From the IMG/VR virus record IMGVR_UViG_2718218449_000013: a DNA stretch of 39,903 nucleotides; one strand, given 5' to 3'. Below are positions 33,001 to 39,000 of this stretch, one piece after another; position 1 is the stretch's first letter, and each line of letters starts with the position of its first letter. The DNA comes from a virus (lineage: Duplodnaviria; Heunggongvirae; Uroviricota; Caudoviricetes). Position numbers: made by a program.

Positions 33001-36000
33001 AAGGCGTGTACGGCTTGTTGGGCTTGTTTAATCCAGTAACTGCGGGGCTTTAAGGCGAGTTTTTGAATCTTAAGTTTATCTTTCTGTTTCTGCTCCTCTC
33101 GTCGTCGTTTCTTCTCTGCTGCCTTTTCTGCCTTTTCCGCTTTTTCGCGTTCTTTGCTTCGTCGTTCGAGTGCTATCTTGGTTCCACACTCTGGAGAGCA
33201 CCACCACTGATTAGCGAATGCAGGGTGAAACCATTCCCGACATTCATCGTTTTTACATCGTCTTCGCGCTGGTTTAGCCATCATCTTTTTCCTCGTGCAT
33301 CGAGCTATTCGAATCGCTCATCAGCTCTGCGCAGCAGTGCTCACACACGTGAACTTCCAGCACATGCAGCTTCTGACCGCAGTTAGCGCACGTTAAAGCC
33401 CGCTCGACGCTTTCTTGTTCGTAACTTCGATTTTGGTCAATCACCTTGTTTTCCTCGCACAATGTCTTAGCCACCGGATATCCCACAGGTGAGCCGTGTA
33501 GTTGAAGGTTTTTACGTCAGATTCTTTTGGGATTGGCTTGCGTTTATTTCTGGAGCGTTTCGTTGGAAGGTATTTGCAGTTTTCGCAGATGATGTCGGTG
33601 AAACTTCGTCGCTGTCGTCTCATGCCGCCCTGTCTCCCCATCGCGCTTTCATACCAGCGATGCGCAGTTCATCGCATTGTTGATCGTCGCCAACCAGTAC
33701 GGCCTTAATCCGTGGACGAAAGAAATTTACGCCTTCCCTGATAAGCAGAACGGCATCGTTCCGGTGGTGGGCGTTGATGGCTGGTCCCGCATCATCAATG
33801 AAAACCAACAGTTTGATGGCATGGACTTTGAGCAGGACAATGAATCCTGTACATGCCGGATTTACCGCAAGGACCGTAATCATCCGATCTGCGTTACCGA
33901 ATGGATGGATGAATGCCGCCGCGAACCATTCAAAACCCGCGAAGGCAGAGAAATCACGGGGCCGTGGCAGTCGCATCCCAAACGGATGTTACGGCATAAA
34001 GCTATGATTCAGTGTGCCCGTCTGGCCTTCGGATTTGCTGGTATCTATGACAAGGATGAAGCCGAGCGCATTGTCGAAAATACTGCATACACTGCAGAAC
34101 GCCAGCCGGAACGCGACATCACTCCGGTTAACGATGAAACCATGCAGGAGATTAACACTCTGCTAATCGCCCTGGATAAAACATGGGATGACGACTTATT
34201 GCCGCTCTGTTCCCAGATATTTCGCCGCGACATTCGCGCATCGTCAGAACTGACACAGGCCGAAGCAGTGAAAGCTCTTGGATTCCTGAAACAGAAAGCC
34301 ACTGAGCAGAAGGTGGCAGCATGACACCGGACATTATCCTGCAGCGTACCGGGATCGACGTGAGAGCTGTCGAACAGGGGGATGATGCATGGCACAAATT
34401 ACGGCTCGGCGTCATCACCGCTTCAGAAGTTCACAACGTGATAGCAAAGCCCCGCTCAGGAAAGAAGTGGCCTGACATGAAAATGTCCTACTTCCACACC
34501 CTGCTGGCTGAGGTTTGCACCGGTGTGGCTCCGGAAGTTAATGCTAAGGCGCTGGCCTGGGGAAAACAGTACGAGAACGACGCCAGAACCCTGTTTGAAT
34601 TCACTTCCGGCGTGAATGTTACTGAATCCCCGATCATCTATCGCGACGAAAGTATGCGCACCGCCTGCTCTCCCGATGGTTTATGCAGTGACGGCAACGG
34701 CCTTGAGCTGAAATGCCCGTTTACCTCCCGGGATTTCATGAAGTTCAGGCTCGGTGGTTTCGAGGCCATAAAGTCGGCTTACATGGCCCAGGTGCAGTAC
34801 AGCATGTGGGTGACGCGAAAAGATGCCTGGTACTTTGCCAACTATGACCCGCGTATGAAGCGTGAAGGCCTGCATTATGTCGTGGTTGAGCGGGATGAAA
34901 AGTACATGGCGGGTTTTGACGAGATGGTGCCGGAGTTCATCGAAAAAATGGACGAGGCACTGGCTGAAATTGGTTTTGTATTTGGGGAGCAATGGCGATG
35001 AAGCATCCTCACGATAATATCCGCGTAGGCACGATCACTTTCGTCTACTCCGTTACGAAGCGAGGCTGGGTATTTCCCGGCCTTTCTGTTATCCGAAATC
35101 CGCTGAAAGCCCAGCGGCTGGCTGAGGAGATAAATAATAAACGGGAGGCGATATGCACAAAGCATCTCCTGTTGAGTTAAGAACGAGTATTGAGATGGCA
35201 CATAGCCTTGCTCAAATTGGAGTCAGGTTTGTGCCAATACCAGTAGAAACAGACGAAGAATTTCATACGTTAGCCACATCCCTTTCGCAAAAGCTGGAAA
35301 TGATGGTGGCGAAAGCAGAAGCAGATGAGAGAGACCTGGTATGACAACCACTGAATGCATTTTTCTGGCAGCGGGCTTCATATTCTGTGTGCTTATGCTT
35401 GCCGACATGGGACTTGTTCAATGACACCTCAGCAAGAAAACGCCCTTCGCAGTATTGCCCGTCAGGCTAATTCTGAAATCAAAAAAGCCAGACAGCCGTT
35501 TCCGGATAAAAACGTCGATGACATTTGCCGTAGCGTACTGAAGAAGCACCGCGAAACGGTAACGCTGATGGGATTCACACCGACTCACTTAAGTCTGGCA
35601 ATCGGCATGTTAAACGGCGTCTTTAAGGAACGGTGAACATGAAAAGCAAAATCATCAGGGAGCTACAGGCTCCTTTTTTATTATTCGCATTCACCCTCAA
35701 GCGTATTAACCAACAATTCAGGGATTAATGGAAGATGGCAGACATCATTGATTCAGCATCAGAAATTGAAGAATTACAGCGCAACACAGCAATAAAAATG
35801 CGCCGCCTGAACCACCAGGCTATATCTGCCACTCATTGTTGTGAGTGTGGCGATCCCATAGATGAGCGAAGACGCCTGGCCGTTCAGGGTTGTCGGACTT
35901 GTGCAAGTTGCCAGGAGGATCTGGAACTTATCAGTAAACAGAGAGGTTCGAAGTGAGCGAAATTAACTAGAAGCCAAAGATAAAATCATCGCTGAGCAGG

Positions 36001-39000
36001 AGAAAATCGCTAACGGAGAAAAGACAGTAAGTCAGTATATGAAAACCGCATGATATCATCAGATAAAAATCGATCGTAAAGCGAAATATTAATACCAGAA
36101 TAAACGAGTCGAGGTAAATTATATTACCTCGATAAATTAACTAAAACTTGCCCGCTATATACTATCTCATTCAGTATCATCACGCGCGGTCTGTGCATAT
36201 GTTACTACCGCACCTAATGTATTAATTTTCTTTTCAACATAGATAATATTATCGTACTCATAATTGCCATACGGATAGCAAATGCGAATATTCTCATGTA
36301 GATCGGGGTCATCCACCTCAGCTCCAGAACAACTTTTTGAACTACCGGAAGTATACCGATACGGTGCAACATAAGACGATGTCTCTCCAGGCAAAAAATA
36401 AGTTAGTGTTGTAAGGGGTATAATCAGAAAAAATCCAGCAAATATGCACATCCCTGCATAAACCTTAAGGTATGCTGACAGACTCTTCCAGCCGCTTTGT
36501 TTTACTATCCCCTTCTTAACCCAAAACAGAGATAACAGAAAAGCTATTCCCATGCTAAACAGAATGTAATAGTGGGATATACTCTGATTAAGAAACGTGA
36601 CCCTGTAAATATCTGCCCGCCACCAGAAGAAAAGGAAAATAAAGATCAGGCCTAAAACTGTCATGCAAATCAAATAAGGATACGAATCTTTTTTCATGTT
36701 TAGCGCCCATAAAATTTTTCCTGCCCCGGACAAATTTACCATCCATTTTTTGCGCAGAAAATAGCTCATTACTTACTGCACAATAATACACAAAATTGCG
36801 TAAATTTTTTGCATGGATTTTAGCTCTTTCAGCCGACGTTTAAGGGGTAAATAGCATTTCCTAAAAGCAACTGCACCAACCCAACAGAATGAGCTACCGC
36901 TTACGTTGAGAGCAAAAAAGTGTATAGCAGCAATGAACAGCATCCTCGCACTGACGAGGATTTCTTTTATCTGAACTCGCTACGGCGGGTTTTGTTTTAT
37001 GGAGATGATAAATGCACTTCCGAGTCACAGGTGAATGGAATGGAGAACCATTCAACAGAGTTATCGAAGCAGAGAACATCAATGACTGCTATGACCACTG
37101 GATGATATGGGCGCAGATAGCACATGCAGACATAACCAATATTCGAATTGAAGAACTGAAAGAACACCAAGCCGCCTGATGGCGGCTTTTTCTTGCGTGT
37201 AATTGCGGAGACTTTGCGATGTACTTGACACTTCAGGAGTGGAACGCACGCCAGCGACGCCCAAGAAGCCTTGAAACAGTTCGTCGATGGGTGCGCGAAT
37301 GCAGGATATTCCCTCCTCCGGTTAAGGATGGAAGAGAGTATCTGTTCCACGAATCAGCGGTAAAGGTTGACTTAAATCGACCAGTAACAGGTAGCCTTTT
37401 GAAGAGGATCAGAAATGGGAAGAAGGCGAAGTCATGAGCGCCGGGATTTACCCCCTAACCTTTATATAAGAAACAATGGATATTACTGCTACAGGGACCC
37501 AAGGACGGGTAAAGAGTTTGGTTTAGGCCGAGACAGGAGGATAGCAATCACTGAAGCAATACAGGCCAATATTGAGTTATTTTCAGGACACAAACACAAG
37601 CCTCTGACAGCGAGAATCAACAGTGATAATTCTGTTACGTTACATTCATGGCTTGATCGCTACGAAAAAATCCTCGCCAGCAGAGGAATCAAGCAGAAGA
37701 CACTCATAAATTACATGAGCAAAATTAAAGCAATAAGGAGGGGGCTGCCTGATGCTCCACTTGAAGACATCACCACAAAAGAAATTGCGGCAATGCTCAA
37801 TGGATACATAGACGAGGGCAAGGCGGCGTCAGCCAAGTTAATCAGATCAACACTGAGCGATGCATTCCGAGAGGCAATAGCTGAAGGCCATATAACAACA
37901 AACCCGGTCGCTGCCACTCGCGCAGCAAAATCAGAGGTAAGGAGATCAAGACTTACGGCTGACGAATACCTGAAAATTTATCAAGCAGCAGAATCATCAC
38001 CATGTTGGCTCAGACTTGCAATGGAACTGGCTGTTGTTACCGGGCAGCGAGTTGGTGATTTATGCGAAATGAAGTGGTCTGATATCGTAGATGGATATCT
38101 TTATGTCGAACAAAGCAAAACAGGCGTAAAAATTGCCATCCCTACAACATTGCATGTTGATGCTCTCGGGATATCAATGAAGGAAACACTTGATAAATGC
38201 AAAGAGATTCTTGGCGGAGAAACCATAATTGCATCTACTCGTCGTGAACCGCTTTCATCCGGCACAGTATCAAGGTATTTTATGCGCGCACGAAAAGCAT
38301 CAGGTCTTTCCTTCGAAGGGGATCCGCCTACCTTTCACGAGTTGCGCAGTTTGTCTGCAAGACTCTATGAGAAGCAGATAAGCGATAAGTTTGCTCAACA
38401 TCTTCTCGGGCATAAGTCGGACACCATGGCATCACAGTATCGTGATGACAGAGGCAGGGAGTGGGACAAAATTGAAATCAAATAATGATTTTATTTTGAC
38501 TGATAGTGACCTGTTCGTTGCAACAAATTGATAAGCAATGCTTTTTTATAATGCCAACTTAGTATAAAAAAGCAGACTTCAACGGATTCATTTTTCTATT
38601 TCATAGCCCGGAGCAACCTGTGAACACATTTTCAGTTTCCCGTCTGGCGCTGGCATTGGCTTTTGGCGTGACGCTGACCGCCTGTAGCTCAACACCACCC
38701 GATCAACGTCCTTCTGATCAAACTGCGCCTGGTACCTCTTCTCGCCCGATTCTGTCGGCAAAAGAAGCGCAGAATTTCGATGCTCAACACTATTTTGCAT
38801 CCCTGACACCAGGTGCTGCAGCGTGGAATCCGTCCCCGATAACCCTGCCTGCGCAACCTGACTTTGTTGTCGGCCCGGCGGGTACTCAAGGTGTAACGCA
38901 TACCACGATTCAGGCGGCGGTAGATGCGGCAATTATCAAGCGCACCAACAAGCGCCAGTATATTGCCGTGATGCCTGGTGAGTATCAGGGAACGGTGTAT

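What the first reader, a model, noticed from the sequence alone, without database searches (positions are those of the whole stretch)
35735..36900. Variable 'ea' region replaced by a TraR/DksA-like zinc-finger gene and an antisense AT-rich membrane protein
Between the early-left small ORFs and xis, where lambda has ea22/ea8.5, this element has a 73-aa C4 zinc-finger protein of the TraR/DksA type (a possible modulator of host RNA polymerase) and, on the opposite strand, a 200-aa protein with three to four TM helices and a roughly 70-aa C-terminal domain. The latter is A+T-rich and architecturally similar to the Q-S moron (TM bundle plus aromatic-rich tail). Both morons could be superinfection-exclusion or defence factors of a kind often found near int.
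Basis: inference. Interest (0 to 1): 0.5.

Follow-up and report, generated by a model that had tools for sequence, protein, structure and literature searches.

The report
Lambda Orf73 plus uncharacterised membrane moron
The zinc-finger gene is phage lambda's already characterised orf73, and only the neighbouring opposite-strand gene is an unstudied cargo gene: a small inner-membrane protein, also carried by phage 434 and about one in six complete E. coli genomes, that may block other phages but has never been tested.

Summary
Both ORFs exist as described, but they are different kinds of thing. The window is the defective lambdoid prophage Sp3 of E. coli O157:H7 at lambda attB.

The 73-aa zinc-finger gene (35735-35956, +) is lambda orf73, 72/73 residues identical. 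Orf73 is a published RNA-polymerase-binding TraR homologue that raises phage yield. Lambda carries it too, so it replaces nothing and is not a defence moron.

What replaces lambda ea22 and ea8.5 is a 973-bp A+T-rich cassette (35969-36941; 37.9% G+C against 50.1% and 44.8% in the flanks). It encodes one protein on the minus strand.
- Homologues place the true start at 36697, giving 176 aa rather than 200.
- The protein has three membrane helices, N terminus inside, and a 75-aa periplasmic beta-barrel with two invariant cysteines.
- It has its own terminator and a conserved upstream region.

The family is tiny, is under purifying selection, and matches no Pfam, NCBIfam, PADLOC or PDB entry. Members sit in three prophage cargo slots (lambdoid exo-xis, P2 gpA-gpQ, lambdoid Q-holin) and at scattered chromosomal sites.

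My best guess, at about 0.35-0.4, is an envelope-acting superinfection-exclusion factor. This is inferred, not shown. Interest is moderate to low.

The parts
35735..35956 (+). orf73: TraR/DksA-family C4 zinc-finger protein, 73 aa, the lambda Orf73 orthologue
   Evidence: The ORF is. Pfam PF01258 scores 35.8 bits against a 24.9 cutoff. PHROG 54 'DksA-like zinc-finger protein' scores 2e-25. It is 72/73 aa identical to lambda. The sequence shows the N-terminal DxxDxA motif (D3-I-I-D6-S-A8) and six cysteines, as in lambda Orf73 (PMC9239242, PMC8614690).
35953..35970 (+). Relic of the ea22 start: GTG AGC GAA ATT AAC TAG. The first 16 nt are shared with lambda ea22, then a stop codon follows.
   Evidence: In alignment A1, identity to lambda ends at window 35968. 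BLAST gives the same limit.
35969..36941 (-). 973-bp A+T-rich cassette that occupies the place of lambda ea22 and ea8.5
   Evidence: BLAST gives lambda homology at window 33651-35968 and 36942-38573 only; alignment A1 agrees. G+C is 37.9% against 50.1% and 44.8% in the flanks. The same cassette is 98-99.8% identical in phages 434, 2B8 and mEp332. It is present in 906 of 5426 complete E. coli genomes.
36167..36697 (-). Coding sequence of the membrane protein, 176 aa (ECs0804 in Sakai). It has three TM helices and a periplasmic C-terminal beta-barrel with two invariant cysteines. The open frame continues upstream to 36769, giving the 200-aa ORF.
   Evidence: The start is set by homologue alignments A2 and A3. 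The AF2 models have pLDDT 82.9 for the whole protein and 90.6 for the C-terminal domain. Hydropathy and charge analysis is. dN/dS is 0.04-0.35.
36109..36132 (-). Intrinsic-terminator-like hairpin 35 nt after the stop codon (TCGAGGTAA-6 nt-TTACCTCGA, then CTCGTTTATT)
   Evidence: The terminator scan found it and it is inverted repeat I2. The RNA fold gives -17.6 kcal/mol, z = -2.58.
36733..36761 (-). Candidate promoter: TTTTCT, 17-nt spacer, TGgTAAATT (extended -10). The predicted transcription start is near 36726.
   Evidence: My relaxed scan found the same TTTTCT-17-TGnTAAATT arrangement, as the top-scoring hit, in each of the three upstream regions scanned: the window and two Salmonella P2-borne copies (upstream regions aligned). 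The stricter tool scan found no promoter upstream of the gene. This is inferred, not shown.
36777..36806 (-). Three tandem 10-bp repeats: ATTTACGCA, TTTTGTGTA, TATTGTGCA. The consensus is ATTGTGCA, about 50-80 nt upstream of the predicted start. This is a candidate regulator-binding site.
   Evidence: The repeats are conserved at -106, -96 and -86 from the ATG in Salmonella P2-borne copies, with 2 or 3 copies. The phage 434 record labels one pair as a CII consensus site. That pattern is not enriched in the window: 6 found, 9.3 expected.
36773..36943 (-). 56-aa ORF, annotated 'putative membrane protein' in phage 434. It is probably not a gene, because it overlaps the conserved regulatory region.
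   Evidence: The ORF is and the annotation. It has no Pfam, PHROG, NCBIfam or PADLOC hit. Homology with the Salmonella copies starts only near 36826, so the ORF is not conserved.
37012..37179 (+). orf55 (lambdap35 homologue), the first conserved gene on the xis side of the cassette
   Evidence: PHROG 676 scores 1.7e-39.

Best explanation
Two unrelated things sit side by side.

1. The 73-aa gene is lambda orf73. It is a TraR-type protein that binds the secondary channel of host RNA polymerase and turns down rRNA and ribosomal-protein promoters early in lytic growth. It is a normal pL-operon gene. In this prophage the pL/immunity region is deleted, so the gene has lost its native promoter and is probably silent.

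2. Lambda's ea22 and ea8.5 are replaced by a self-contained cassette, a moron, read from the opposite strand. It has a conserved upstream region (tandem ATTGTGCA repeats and an extended -10 promoter candidate), one 176-aa gene and its own terminator.

The product is an inner-membrane protein with the N terminus in the cytoplasm and three TM helices. Its first periplasmic loop packs as a strand against a 75-aa periplasmic OB-like beta-barrel that probably holds one disulfide.

I propose that it is made from the repressed prophage and acts at the envelope. The most likely role is superinfection exclusion. In that role the periplasmic domain would bind either an incoming phage's tape-measure or ejection proteins, or an inner-membrane entry factor, and so block genome entry.

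Shown: gene identity, cassette boundaries, architecture, distribution, purifying selection. Inferred: promoter, prophage expression, topology, disulfide, and the exclusion function itself.
For: orf73:
- It is 72/73 aa identical to lambda and hits Pfam, PHROG and NCBIfam TraR models.
- Its function is published (PMC9239242).
- Loss of pL follows from bet being truncated at 33651 and abutting ninE at 33441-33641 on the minus strand.

Cassette as an independent unit:
- Its boundaries are exact.
- It has low G+C, opposite orientation, a terminator and an upstream region conserved between E. coli lambdoid and Salmonella P2 copies.

A real, selected protein:
- The alignment has 34 invariant columns, including two Cys.
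- dN/dS is 0.04-0.35, with the periplasmic part more constrained.
- The AF2 models are confident.
- The gene stays intact in a decayed prophage remnant beside pseudogenes and an IS.

Topology: three hydrophobic segments, and a cytoplasmic loop with 5 K and no acidic residue.

Cargo behaviour:
- Homologues sit in the P2 gpA-gpQ hotspot, the locus of the old/tin exclusion genes (PMC9122126).
- A remote homologue sits between Q and the holin in another lambdoid prophage.
- Genes antisense to prophage lytic genes with their own promoter are typical accessory loci (PMC7067206).

Precedent: P22 SieA is a small inner-membrane exclusion protein encoded by a separately transcribed gene with its own promoter (PMC10883804, abstract).
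Against: - No homology to any known exclusion or defence protein. PADLOC gives none, hhalign against P22 SieA gives probability 0.3%, and PDB and BFVD give only generic small-barrel or helix matches.
- The P2 hotspot also carries non-defence cargo, and only 15-32% of its unknown genes score as antiviral (PMC9122126; PMC13586616).
- Several family members are ordinary-looking chromosomal genes. One locus is syntenic across five Enterobacter species, and others lie in Citrobacter, Klebsiella, Pseudescherichia and a contig carrying an OprD-family porin gene. A housekeeping envelope role would fit these equally well.
- dN/dS shows no arms-race signature.
- No consensus sigma-70 promoter passed the standard scan.
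- No expression or phenotype data were found.
Confidence: 0.4

Rival explanations
1. The membrane protein is an envelope fitness or lysogenic-conversion factor unrelated to phages. It might modulate a periplasmic or inner-membrane host process such as stress tolerance, transport, signalling or colonisation. On this reading phages merely ferry it as cargo.
For: - Chromosomal, non-prophage copies exist at non-syntenic sites in several genera, and one locus is conserved across five Enterobacter species.
- Selection is purifying, not diversifying.
- The same prophage carries other envelope cargo such as lpxR.
- P2 and lambdoid cargo slots also hold virulence and fitness genes (PMC9122126).
Against: - There is no link to any known envelope pathway or domain.
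- Neighbours differ at every chromosomal site, so context points to no pathway.
- It recurs in three different prophage cargo slots, one of them the old/tin exclusion locus.
Confidence: 0.3
2. It is an orphan immunity protein against a toxin that acts in the periplasm or membrane, such as a bacteriocin, or a T6SS or CDI effector. It would neutralise the toxin through its periplasmic domain.
For: - It is small, membrane-anchored and periplasm-facing, with a conserved Cys pair.
- It has a patchy, single-gene, horizontally moved distribution.
- From my own knowledge, orphan immunity genes are often scattered in this way.
Against: - No toxin gene (colicin, Rhs, CDI or T6SS effector) lies beside any of the loci examined. 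The only neighbouring toxin is an unrelated YafO toxin-antitoxin gene in one Salmonella prophage.
Confidence: 0.1
3. It is a membrane effector of abortive infection, or a toxic membrane protein. On phage entry or prophage induction it would permeabilise the inner membrane, in the manner of RexB-type or other TM effectors.
For: - TM proteins in defence hotspots are commonly thought to be suicide effectors (PMC9122126).
- The protein has three TM helices.
- The repeats upstream suggest regulated rather than constitutive expression.
Against: - It is a single gene with no conserved sensor partner in any context.
- The most conserved part is the folded periplasmic domain, not the helices.
- It is stably kept in chromosomes and in decayed prophages.
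Confidence: 0.1
4. The important product is the antisense transcript, not the protein. Transcription converging on the pL operon would damp read-through into xis and int, like the C1-activated aI RNA of P22. It might be driven by CII through the TTGT-N6-TTGT repeats.
For: - The cassette is antisense to the pL operon, just upstream of xis and int.
- The phage 434 record marks a CII consensus site there.
- P22 has a C1-activated antisense promoter in the equivalent region.
Against: - The protein is clearly under purifying selection and folds confidently.
- The same repeats and gene occur in P2-like prophages. From my own knowledge of P2 biology, these have no CII and no pL operon (one search shows only the local P2 gene context; one search shows the repeats).
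- TTGY-N6-TTGY is not enriched, and the repeats read TTGT rather than the TTGC seen at the window's own PI site.
- The predicted transcript (about 36726 to 36109) overlaps neither orf73 nor orf55.
Confidence: 0.05

Closest known systems
Phage lambda Orf73 / F-plasmid TraR (TraR/DksA family, Pfam PF01258)
   Same: The 73-aa protein is 72/73 identical to lambda Orf73. It has the same length, the same DxxDxA motif, the same six cysteines and the same position between orf61 and the ea22 start (PMC9239242).
   Different: There is one substitution (A49 here, V in lambda). In this prophage the pL promoter region is deleted, so its normal early-lytic expression is lost.
Lambda ea22 and ea8.5, the genes that occupy this slot in lambda
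   Same: The slot is the same, between orf73 and orf55/xis. The first 16 nt of ea22 are still present.
   Different: Sequence, strand and product are unrelated. ea22 and ea8.5 are soluble proteins read from pL, whereas the cassette encodes one membrane protein read from the opposite strand.
P22 SieA (prophage-expressed inner-membrane superinfection-exclusion protein)
   Same: Both are small (164 vs 176 aa) multi-TM inner-membrane proteins. Each is encoded by a single, separately transcribed gene on a temperate phage of enterobacteria, and sieA has its own annotated promoter.
   Different: There is no detectable homology (hhalign probability 0.3%). The SieA sequence shows no C-terminal periplasmic beta-barrel or Cys pair. 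The genome position differs. Exclusion is shown for SieA and untested here.
HK97 gp15 (moron-encoded inner-membrane protein that blocks DNA entry)
   Same: From my own knowledge and PMC3594210: it is a moron of a lambdoid phage that encodes a membrane-anchored protein with a periplasmic part, is expressed from the prophage, and blocks genome injection.
   Different: I did not compare the sequences here. gp15 lies among tail genes and, as I recall, has fewer TM helices. This is a functional analogy only.
Cargo of the P2 gpA-gpQ hotspot (old, tin and many defence systems)
   Same: Homologues of 55-70% identity sit in exactly this hotspot in Salmonella and Klebsiella P2-like prophages.
   Different: The window's copy is in a lambdoid prophage, not P2. 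The family is not among recognised defence systems, and the hotspot also holds non-defence genes.

Membership tests
TraR/DksA C4 zinc-finger family (lambda Orf73 subgroup) | CxxC-N17-CxxC zinc finger matching Pfam PF01258 above its gathering score | tested here: met
   It scores 35.8 bits against a 24.9 cutoff at residues 33-64. The sequence shows C35/C38 and C56/C59, 17 residues apart. NCBIfam TIGR02419 scores 55.7, just under its 59.7 cutoff.
TraR/DksA C4 zinc-finger family (lambda Orf73 subgroup) | N-terminal acidic DxxDxA motif that reaches the RNAP active-site channel | tested here: met
   The sequence begins MADIIDSAS, giving D3-x-x-D6-x-A8. The motif is described in PMC8614690.
TraR/DksA C4 zinc-finger family (lambda Orf73 subgroup) | Orthology with the experimentally characterised lambda Orf73 (sequence and synteny) | tested here: met
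   It is 72/73 aa identical and lies in the same place in the exo-xis block.
TraR/DksA C4 zinc-finger family (lambda Orf73 subgroup) | Binds RNAP and inhibits rRNA promoters | not testable with these tools
   This is shown for lambda Orf73 (PMC9239242). Here it is assumed from 99% identity.
Moron (independent cargo transcription unit in a phage genome) | Present between genes that are otherwise adjacent or differently filled in close relatives | tested here: met
   The flanks are 97% identical to lambda up to 35968 and from 36942 onward, with unrelated sequence between them. Homologues lie in two other cargo slots.
Moron (independent cargo transcription unit in a phage genome) | Nucleotide composition different from the surrounding genome | tested here: met
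   G+C is 37.9% against 50.1% and 44.8% in the flanks and 49.9% for the window.
Moron (independent cargo transcription unit in a phage genome) | Own terminator | tested here: met
   The hairpin at 36132-36109 is followed by a T-rich tail. Its fold is -17.6 kcal/mol, z = -2.58. This is a prediction only.
Moron (independent cargo transcription unit in a phage genome) | Own promoter, active in the lysogen | tested here: inconclusive
   The standard scan found none upstream. A relaxed scan finds TTTTCT-17-TGnTAAATT as the top hit in the window and in two Salmonella copies. There are no transcript data.
P22 SieA family | Detectable sequence or profile homology to SieA | tested here: not met
   hhalign of family alignment A3 against P22 SieA gives probability 0.3%, E = 0.24.
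Known anti-phage defence systems (PADLOC-DB v2) | Match to any defence-protein model | tested here: not met
   No family matched at E <= 1.
Superinfection-exclusion proteins (functional class) | Expression from the prophage reduces entry or plating of superinfecting phage | not testable with these tools
   No paper mentions ECs0804 or WP_000120056. This needs plating and DNA-entry assays.
Superinfection-exclusion proteins (functional class) | Envelope location with a domain exposed to the periplasm | tested here: inconclusive
   The evidence is predicted only: three hydrophobic segments, a loop with 5 K and no acidic residue placed inside, and an acidic C-terminal domain with two invariant Cys placed outside.

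The most novel reading that the evidence does not exclude
The 176-aa protein founds a new family of envelope-acting superinfection-exclusion proteins, with three TM helices and a disulfide-bonded periplasmic OB-like barrel. The family moves as a promoter-plus-gene cassette between lambdoid prophages (exo-xis and Q-holin slots), P2-like prophages (old/tin hotspot) and bacterial chromosomes. Expression would be controlled through the conserved tandem ATTGTGCA repeats by a host or phage regulator not yet identified. The classic phage 434 would then carry an exclusion system that has gone unnoticed for more than 60 years.
Probability: 0.3. Interest if true: 0.55.

Novelty: new member of a known kind. 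Interest (0 to 1): 0.3.

Why it matters
The zinc-finger half adds nothing new, because it is lambda orf73.

The membrane cassette is a cheap and well-defined target.
- It is a single 176-aa gene of unknown function in about 17% of complete E. coli genomes, including the O157:H7 prophage Sp3, and in the laboratory phage 434.
- It belongs to a family with no annotation in any library I searched.
- It recurs in cargo slots where phage-exclusion genes are often found.

If it excludes phages, it would add a new envelope-level mechanism and a ready genetic system (434 against lambda). It would also be another example of cargo exchange between lambdoid and P2-like phages. If it does not, it is one more conserved small membrane protein of unknown role.

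Tried and rejected
- Pfam, NCBIfam and PADLOC scans of the membrane protein, the 56-aa ORF and orf55 gave nothing. PHROG 1416 (unknown function) matches only the C-terminal 88 aa.
- A profile search of PDB sequences gave nothing below E = 0.5.
- Pairwise comparison with the Q-S membrane ORF showed no relationship.
- hhalign against P22 SieA showed none.
- A CII-dependent promoter is rejected as unsupported. TTGY-N6-TTGY is at chance level, and the repeats are kept in P2-like prophages, which from my own knowledge lack CII.
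- The 200-aa start, the 434 record's TTG start (188 aa) and the 56-aa upstream ORF are rejected on homologue alignment and non-conservation.
- Rfam found no RNA family in 33000-39000.
- Literature searches for ECs0804, WP_000120056 and mEp332 gave no functional data. The 434 genome announcement says only that its morons differ from lambda's.
- A 3074-aa repeat protein (P0116) hit by the profile shares only a short 'DPD..NI.I.YP.G' motif repeated 11 times. I judged this a motif-level match, not homology.

Full report
**Setting.** The window matches prophage Sp3 of E. coli O157:H7 Sakai at 99.93% identity (annotation). The prophage sits at the lambda attachment site beside ybhC. On the plus strand the order is: a truncated bet, exo, orf60a (DUF1317), orf63 (DUF1382), an orf61-like ORF, the 73-aa gene, the opposite-strand ORF, orf55, xis, int, ybhC. 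Homology to lambda and 434 starts inside bet at 33651. Immediately to its left lies ninE on the other strand (33441-33641). So pL, N, the immunity region and the replication genes are gone from this prophage.

**The zinc-finger gene.**
- ORF 35735-35956 (+) matches Pfam zf-dskA_traR above its cutoff (35.8 against 24.9 bits) and PHROG 54. It scores just under the NCBIfam TraR-family cutoff.
- It is 72/73 residues identical to the protein lambda encodes at the same place.
- Other lambda records annotate that protein as a DksA/TraR zinc-finger or TraR/YbiI protein.
- Lambda Orf73 has been purified and studied. It binds RNAP, inhibits rRNA and r-protein promoters, slows host growth and raises phage yield about 4-fold. 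It is made from pL early in lytic growth (PMC9239242).
- It belongs to a conserved block, orf60a-orf63-orf61-orf73-ea22, in lambda and Stx phages (PMC8614690).

This gene is therefore neither a substitution nor a moron nor a defence candidate.

**What actually replaces ea22 and ea8.5.**
- A three-way alignment with lambda and 434 and BLAST put the break points at 35968/35969 and 36941/36942.
- The first 16 nt of ea22 survive and run straight into a stop codon.
- The 973 bp in between are unrelated to lambda. They are 98-99.8% identical to phages 434, 2B8 and mEp332.
- Those are the only three phages among 50,697 phage records that encode the protein.
- In contrast, 906 of 5426 complete E. coli genomes carry the segment, always on the chromosome. 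Most examples I opened are lambdoid prophages at ybhC with intact early-left operons.
- One example is a decayed remnant near torI/dsdC. There the gene is intact beside a tail-fibre fragment, a recombinase pseudogene and an IS4.

**The gene.**
- The 200-aa ORF (36167-36769, -) is over-extended. All homologues of 36-78% identity begin at its Met25.
- The Salmonella copy has ATG-TAG where the window has its upstream ATG.
- PGAP aa in strain 4314.
- The best promoter candidate lies downstream of the earlier start codons.
- I therefore take 36167-36697 as the gene, giving 176 aa.
- The 56-aa ORF upstream (36773-36943), annotated in 434 as a membrane protein, overlaps the conserved non-coding region. 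It is not conserved in Salmonella, so it is probably not a gene.

**The protein.**
- It has three hydrophobic segments. The loop between helices 2 and 3 carries five lysines and no acidic residue.
- The C-terminal 75 residues are acidic and hold the only two invariant cysteines. By the positive-inside rule this gives N terminus in, C terminus out.
- AlphaFold2 gives pLDDT 82.9 for the whole protein. It shows three long helices, and a short strand in the first periplasmic loop (the conserved IYRVTFL) lying next to a five-stranded C-terminal sheet.
- The whole-model searches are uninformative. Nothing matches in Pfam, NCBIfam, PADLOC or PDB sequences.
- Pairwise dN/dS is 0.04-0.35, lower in the periplasmic domain than in the helices.

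It is a real, constrained protein whose conserved surface faces the periplasm.

**The family and where it lives.**
- An exhaustive profile search of 1.84 billion cluster representatives finds only 61 clusters.
- Nine of 185,579 species-representative genomes carry it. Eight are Enterobacteriaceae, and the ninth is a 3.6-kb contig in a MAG that looks like contamination.
- The closest relatives outside E. coli sit between the replication gene gpA and the portal gene gpQ of P2-like prophages. These are the Salmonella copy at 70% identity and the Klebsiella copy at 55%. That interval is the old/tin locus, defined as a defence hotspot in PMC9122126.
- A remote member that keeps both cysteines lies between Q and the holin of another lambdoid prophage.
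- More distant members are plain chromosomal genes. One locus, LysR-X-GGDEF, is syntenic across five Enterobacter species. Unrelated sites occur in Citrobacter, Pseudescherichia, Klebsiella and other contigs, one of which carries an OprD-family porin gene.

The picture is a single-gene cassette that moves between phage cargo slots and chromosomes.

**Regulatory anatomy (inferred).**
- About 130 bp upstream of the ATG are conserved between the E. coli lambdoid and the Salmonella P2 copies, although the surrounding phages are unrelated.
- That stretch holds two or three tandem 10-bp repeats (ATTGTGCA) at -106, -96 and -86.
- Downstream of them is a shared TTTTCT-17-TGnTAAATT extended -10 candidate, which predicts a start near 36726.
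- The standard promoter scan found nothing upstream, so this remains a hypothesis.
- The 434 record labels the repeats as a CII consensus site. That pattern is at chance frequency in the window, and the repeats also occur in P2-like prophages, which from my own knowledge lack CII. I do not adopt that reading.
- A terminator-like hairpin follows the stop codon.
- With 37.9% G+C against about 45-50% around it and the opposite orientation, the cassette meets the usual description of a moron (PMC3594210; PMC7067206).

**Function.** Nothing here shows function. For superinfection exclusion:
- the protein has an envelope location with a conserved periplasmic face;
- it is a single-gene unit oriented against the lytic operon;
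- it recurs in cargo slots, including the old/tin locus;
- it survives in decayed prophages;
- P22 SieA and HK97 gp15 are precedents.

Against it:
- there is no homology to SieA or to any defence model;
- cargo slots also hold non-defence genes, and only a minority of unknown P2-hotspot genes score as antiviral;
- stable chromosomal orthologues exist;
- no diversifying selection is seen.

I put exclusion at roughly 0.35-0.4. A non-phage envelope or fitness role is about 0.3. Orphan immunity and abortive membrane effector are about 0.1 each. An antisense-RNA role is about 0.05.

**The Q-S comparison.** ORF 28737-29495 (-) lies between Q (29664-30437) and the lysis genes. It is a multi-TM protein of PHROG 1521. 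It shows no sequence similarity to the ea-slot protein. The two share only the general description of a membrane protein with a tail. A true remote homologue of the ea-slot protein does occupy the Q-holin slot in another prophage.

**Verdict.** One gene is already known. The other is a new, unannotated example of a familiar kind of element, a prophage moron encoding a small membrane protein. It is a reasonable but unproven exclusion candidate.

Noticed in passing
window 33441-33700: bet is truncated: homology to lambda starts at 33651, 112 nt into bet. It directly abuts ninE (33441-33641) on the opposite strand. The prophage has therefore lost pL, N, cIII, kil, gam, the immunity region and O/P. 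The exo-xis genes, including orf73, have no native promoter.
   Followed up: partly
window 28737-29495 (-): The Q-S slot holds a 252-aa multi-TM protein of PHROG 1521 (unknown function) with no Pfam hit. It is a second uncharacterised membrane moron in the same prophage and is unrelated in sequence to the ea-slot protein.
   Followed up: partly
window 30828-31787 (+) and 31999-32664 (-): There is cargo in the nin-Q region. lpxR, the lipid A 3'-O-deacylase, scores 6.8e-40 against the Pfam LpxR model. Next to it is a gene that the Sakai record annotates as pphA, a serine/threonine-specific protein phosphatase.
   Followed up: partly
L001 4108-4452 (phage 434): Phage 434 has an extra insertion of about 440 bp, with a 345-nt ORF, between orf55 and xis. 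Both the window and lambda lack it.
   Followed up: no
window 35355-35636 (+): The orf61-like ORF is 93 aa here (PHROG 303). Lambda has one more A in an A-run at alignment column 182. This may relate to the published remark that lambda Orf61 looks truncated relative to Stx-phage versions.
   Followed up: no
L028 6001-6564 (CP072453.1): A remote homologue (P0121, 187 aa, both Cys kept) lies between antiterminator Q and the holin of a lambdoid prophage. This is a third prophage cargo slot used by the family.
   Followed up: partly
L011 5085-6510; also L016, L017, L018, L022: In five Enterobacter species the homologue sits at one syntenic chromosomal locus upstream of a HAMP-GGDEF gene. In L011, L017 and L022 its start is 16 bp after the stop of a LysR-type regulator gene, which suggests co-transcription. 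It diverges faster than its neighbours: 68-97% against 83-99% identity.
   Followed up: partly
P0116 (3074 aa; no locus fetched): A giant repeat protein, probably a lipoprotein, matches profile positions 122-158 eleven times through a short 'DPD..NI.I.YP.G' motif. This is probably motif-level resemblance only.
   Followed up: partly
L008 2281-5623 (Klebsiella P2-like prophage): Next to the homologue, the gpA-gpQ hotspot carries a 790-aa AAA_16-like ATPase gene and a 279-aa gene with no Pfam domain. This is a possible uncharacterised two-gene defence system.
   Followed up: no
window 37415-38485 against L023 3198-3968: int is an intact 356-aa ORF in the window but is annotated as a pseudogene in Sakai. 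The two sequences differ by a single gap over 10.2 kb.
   Followed up: no
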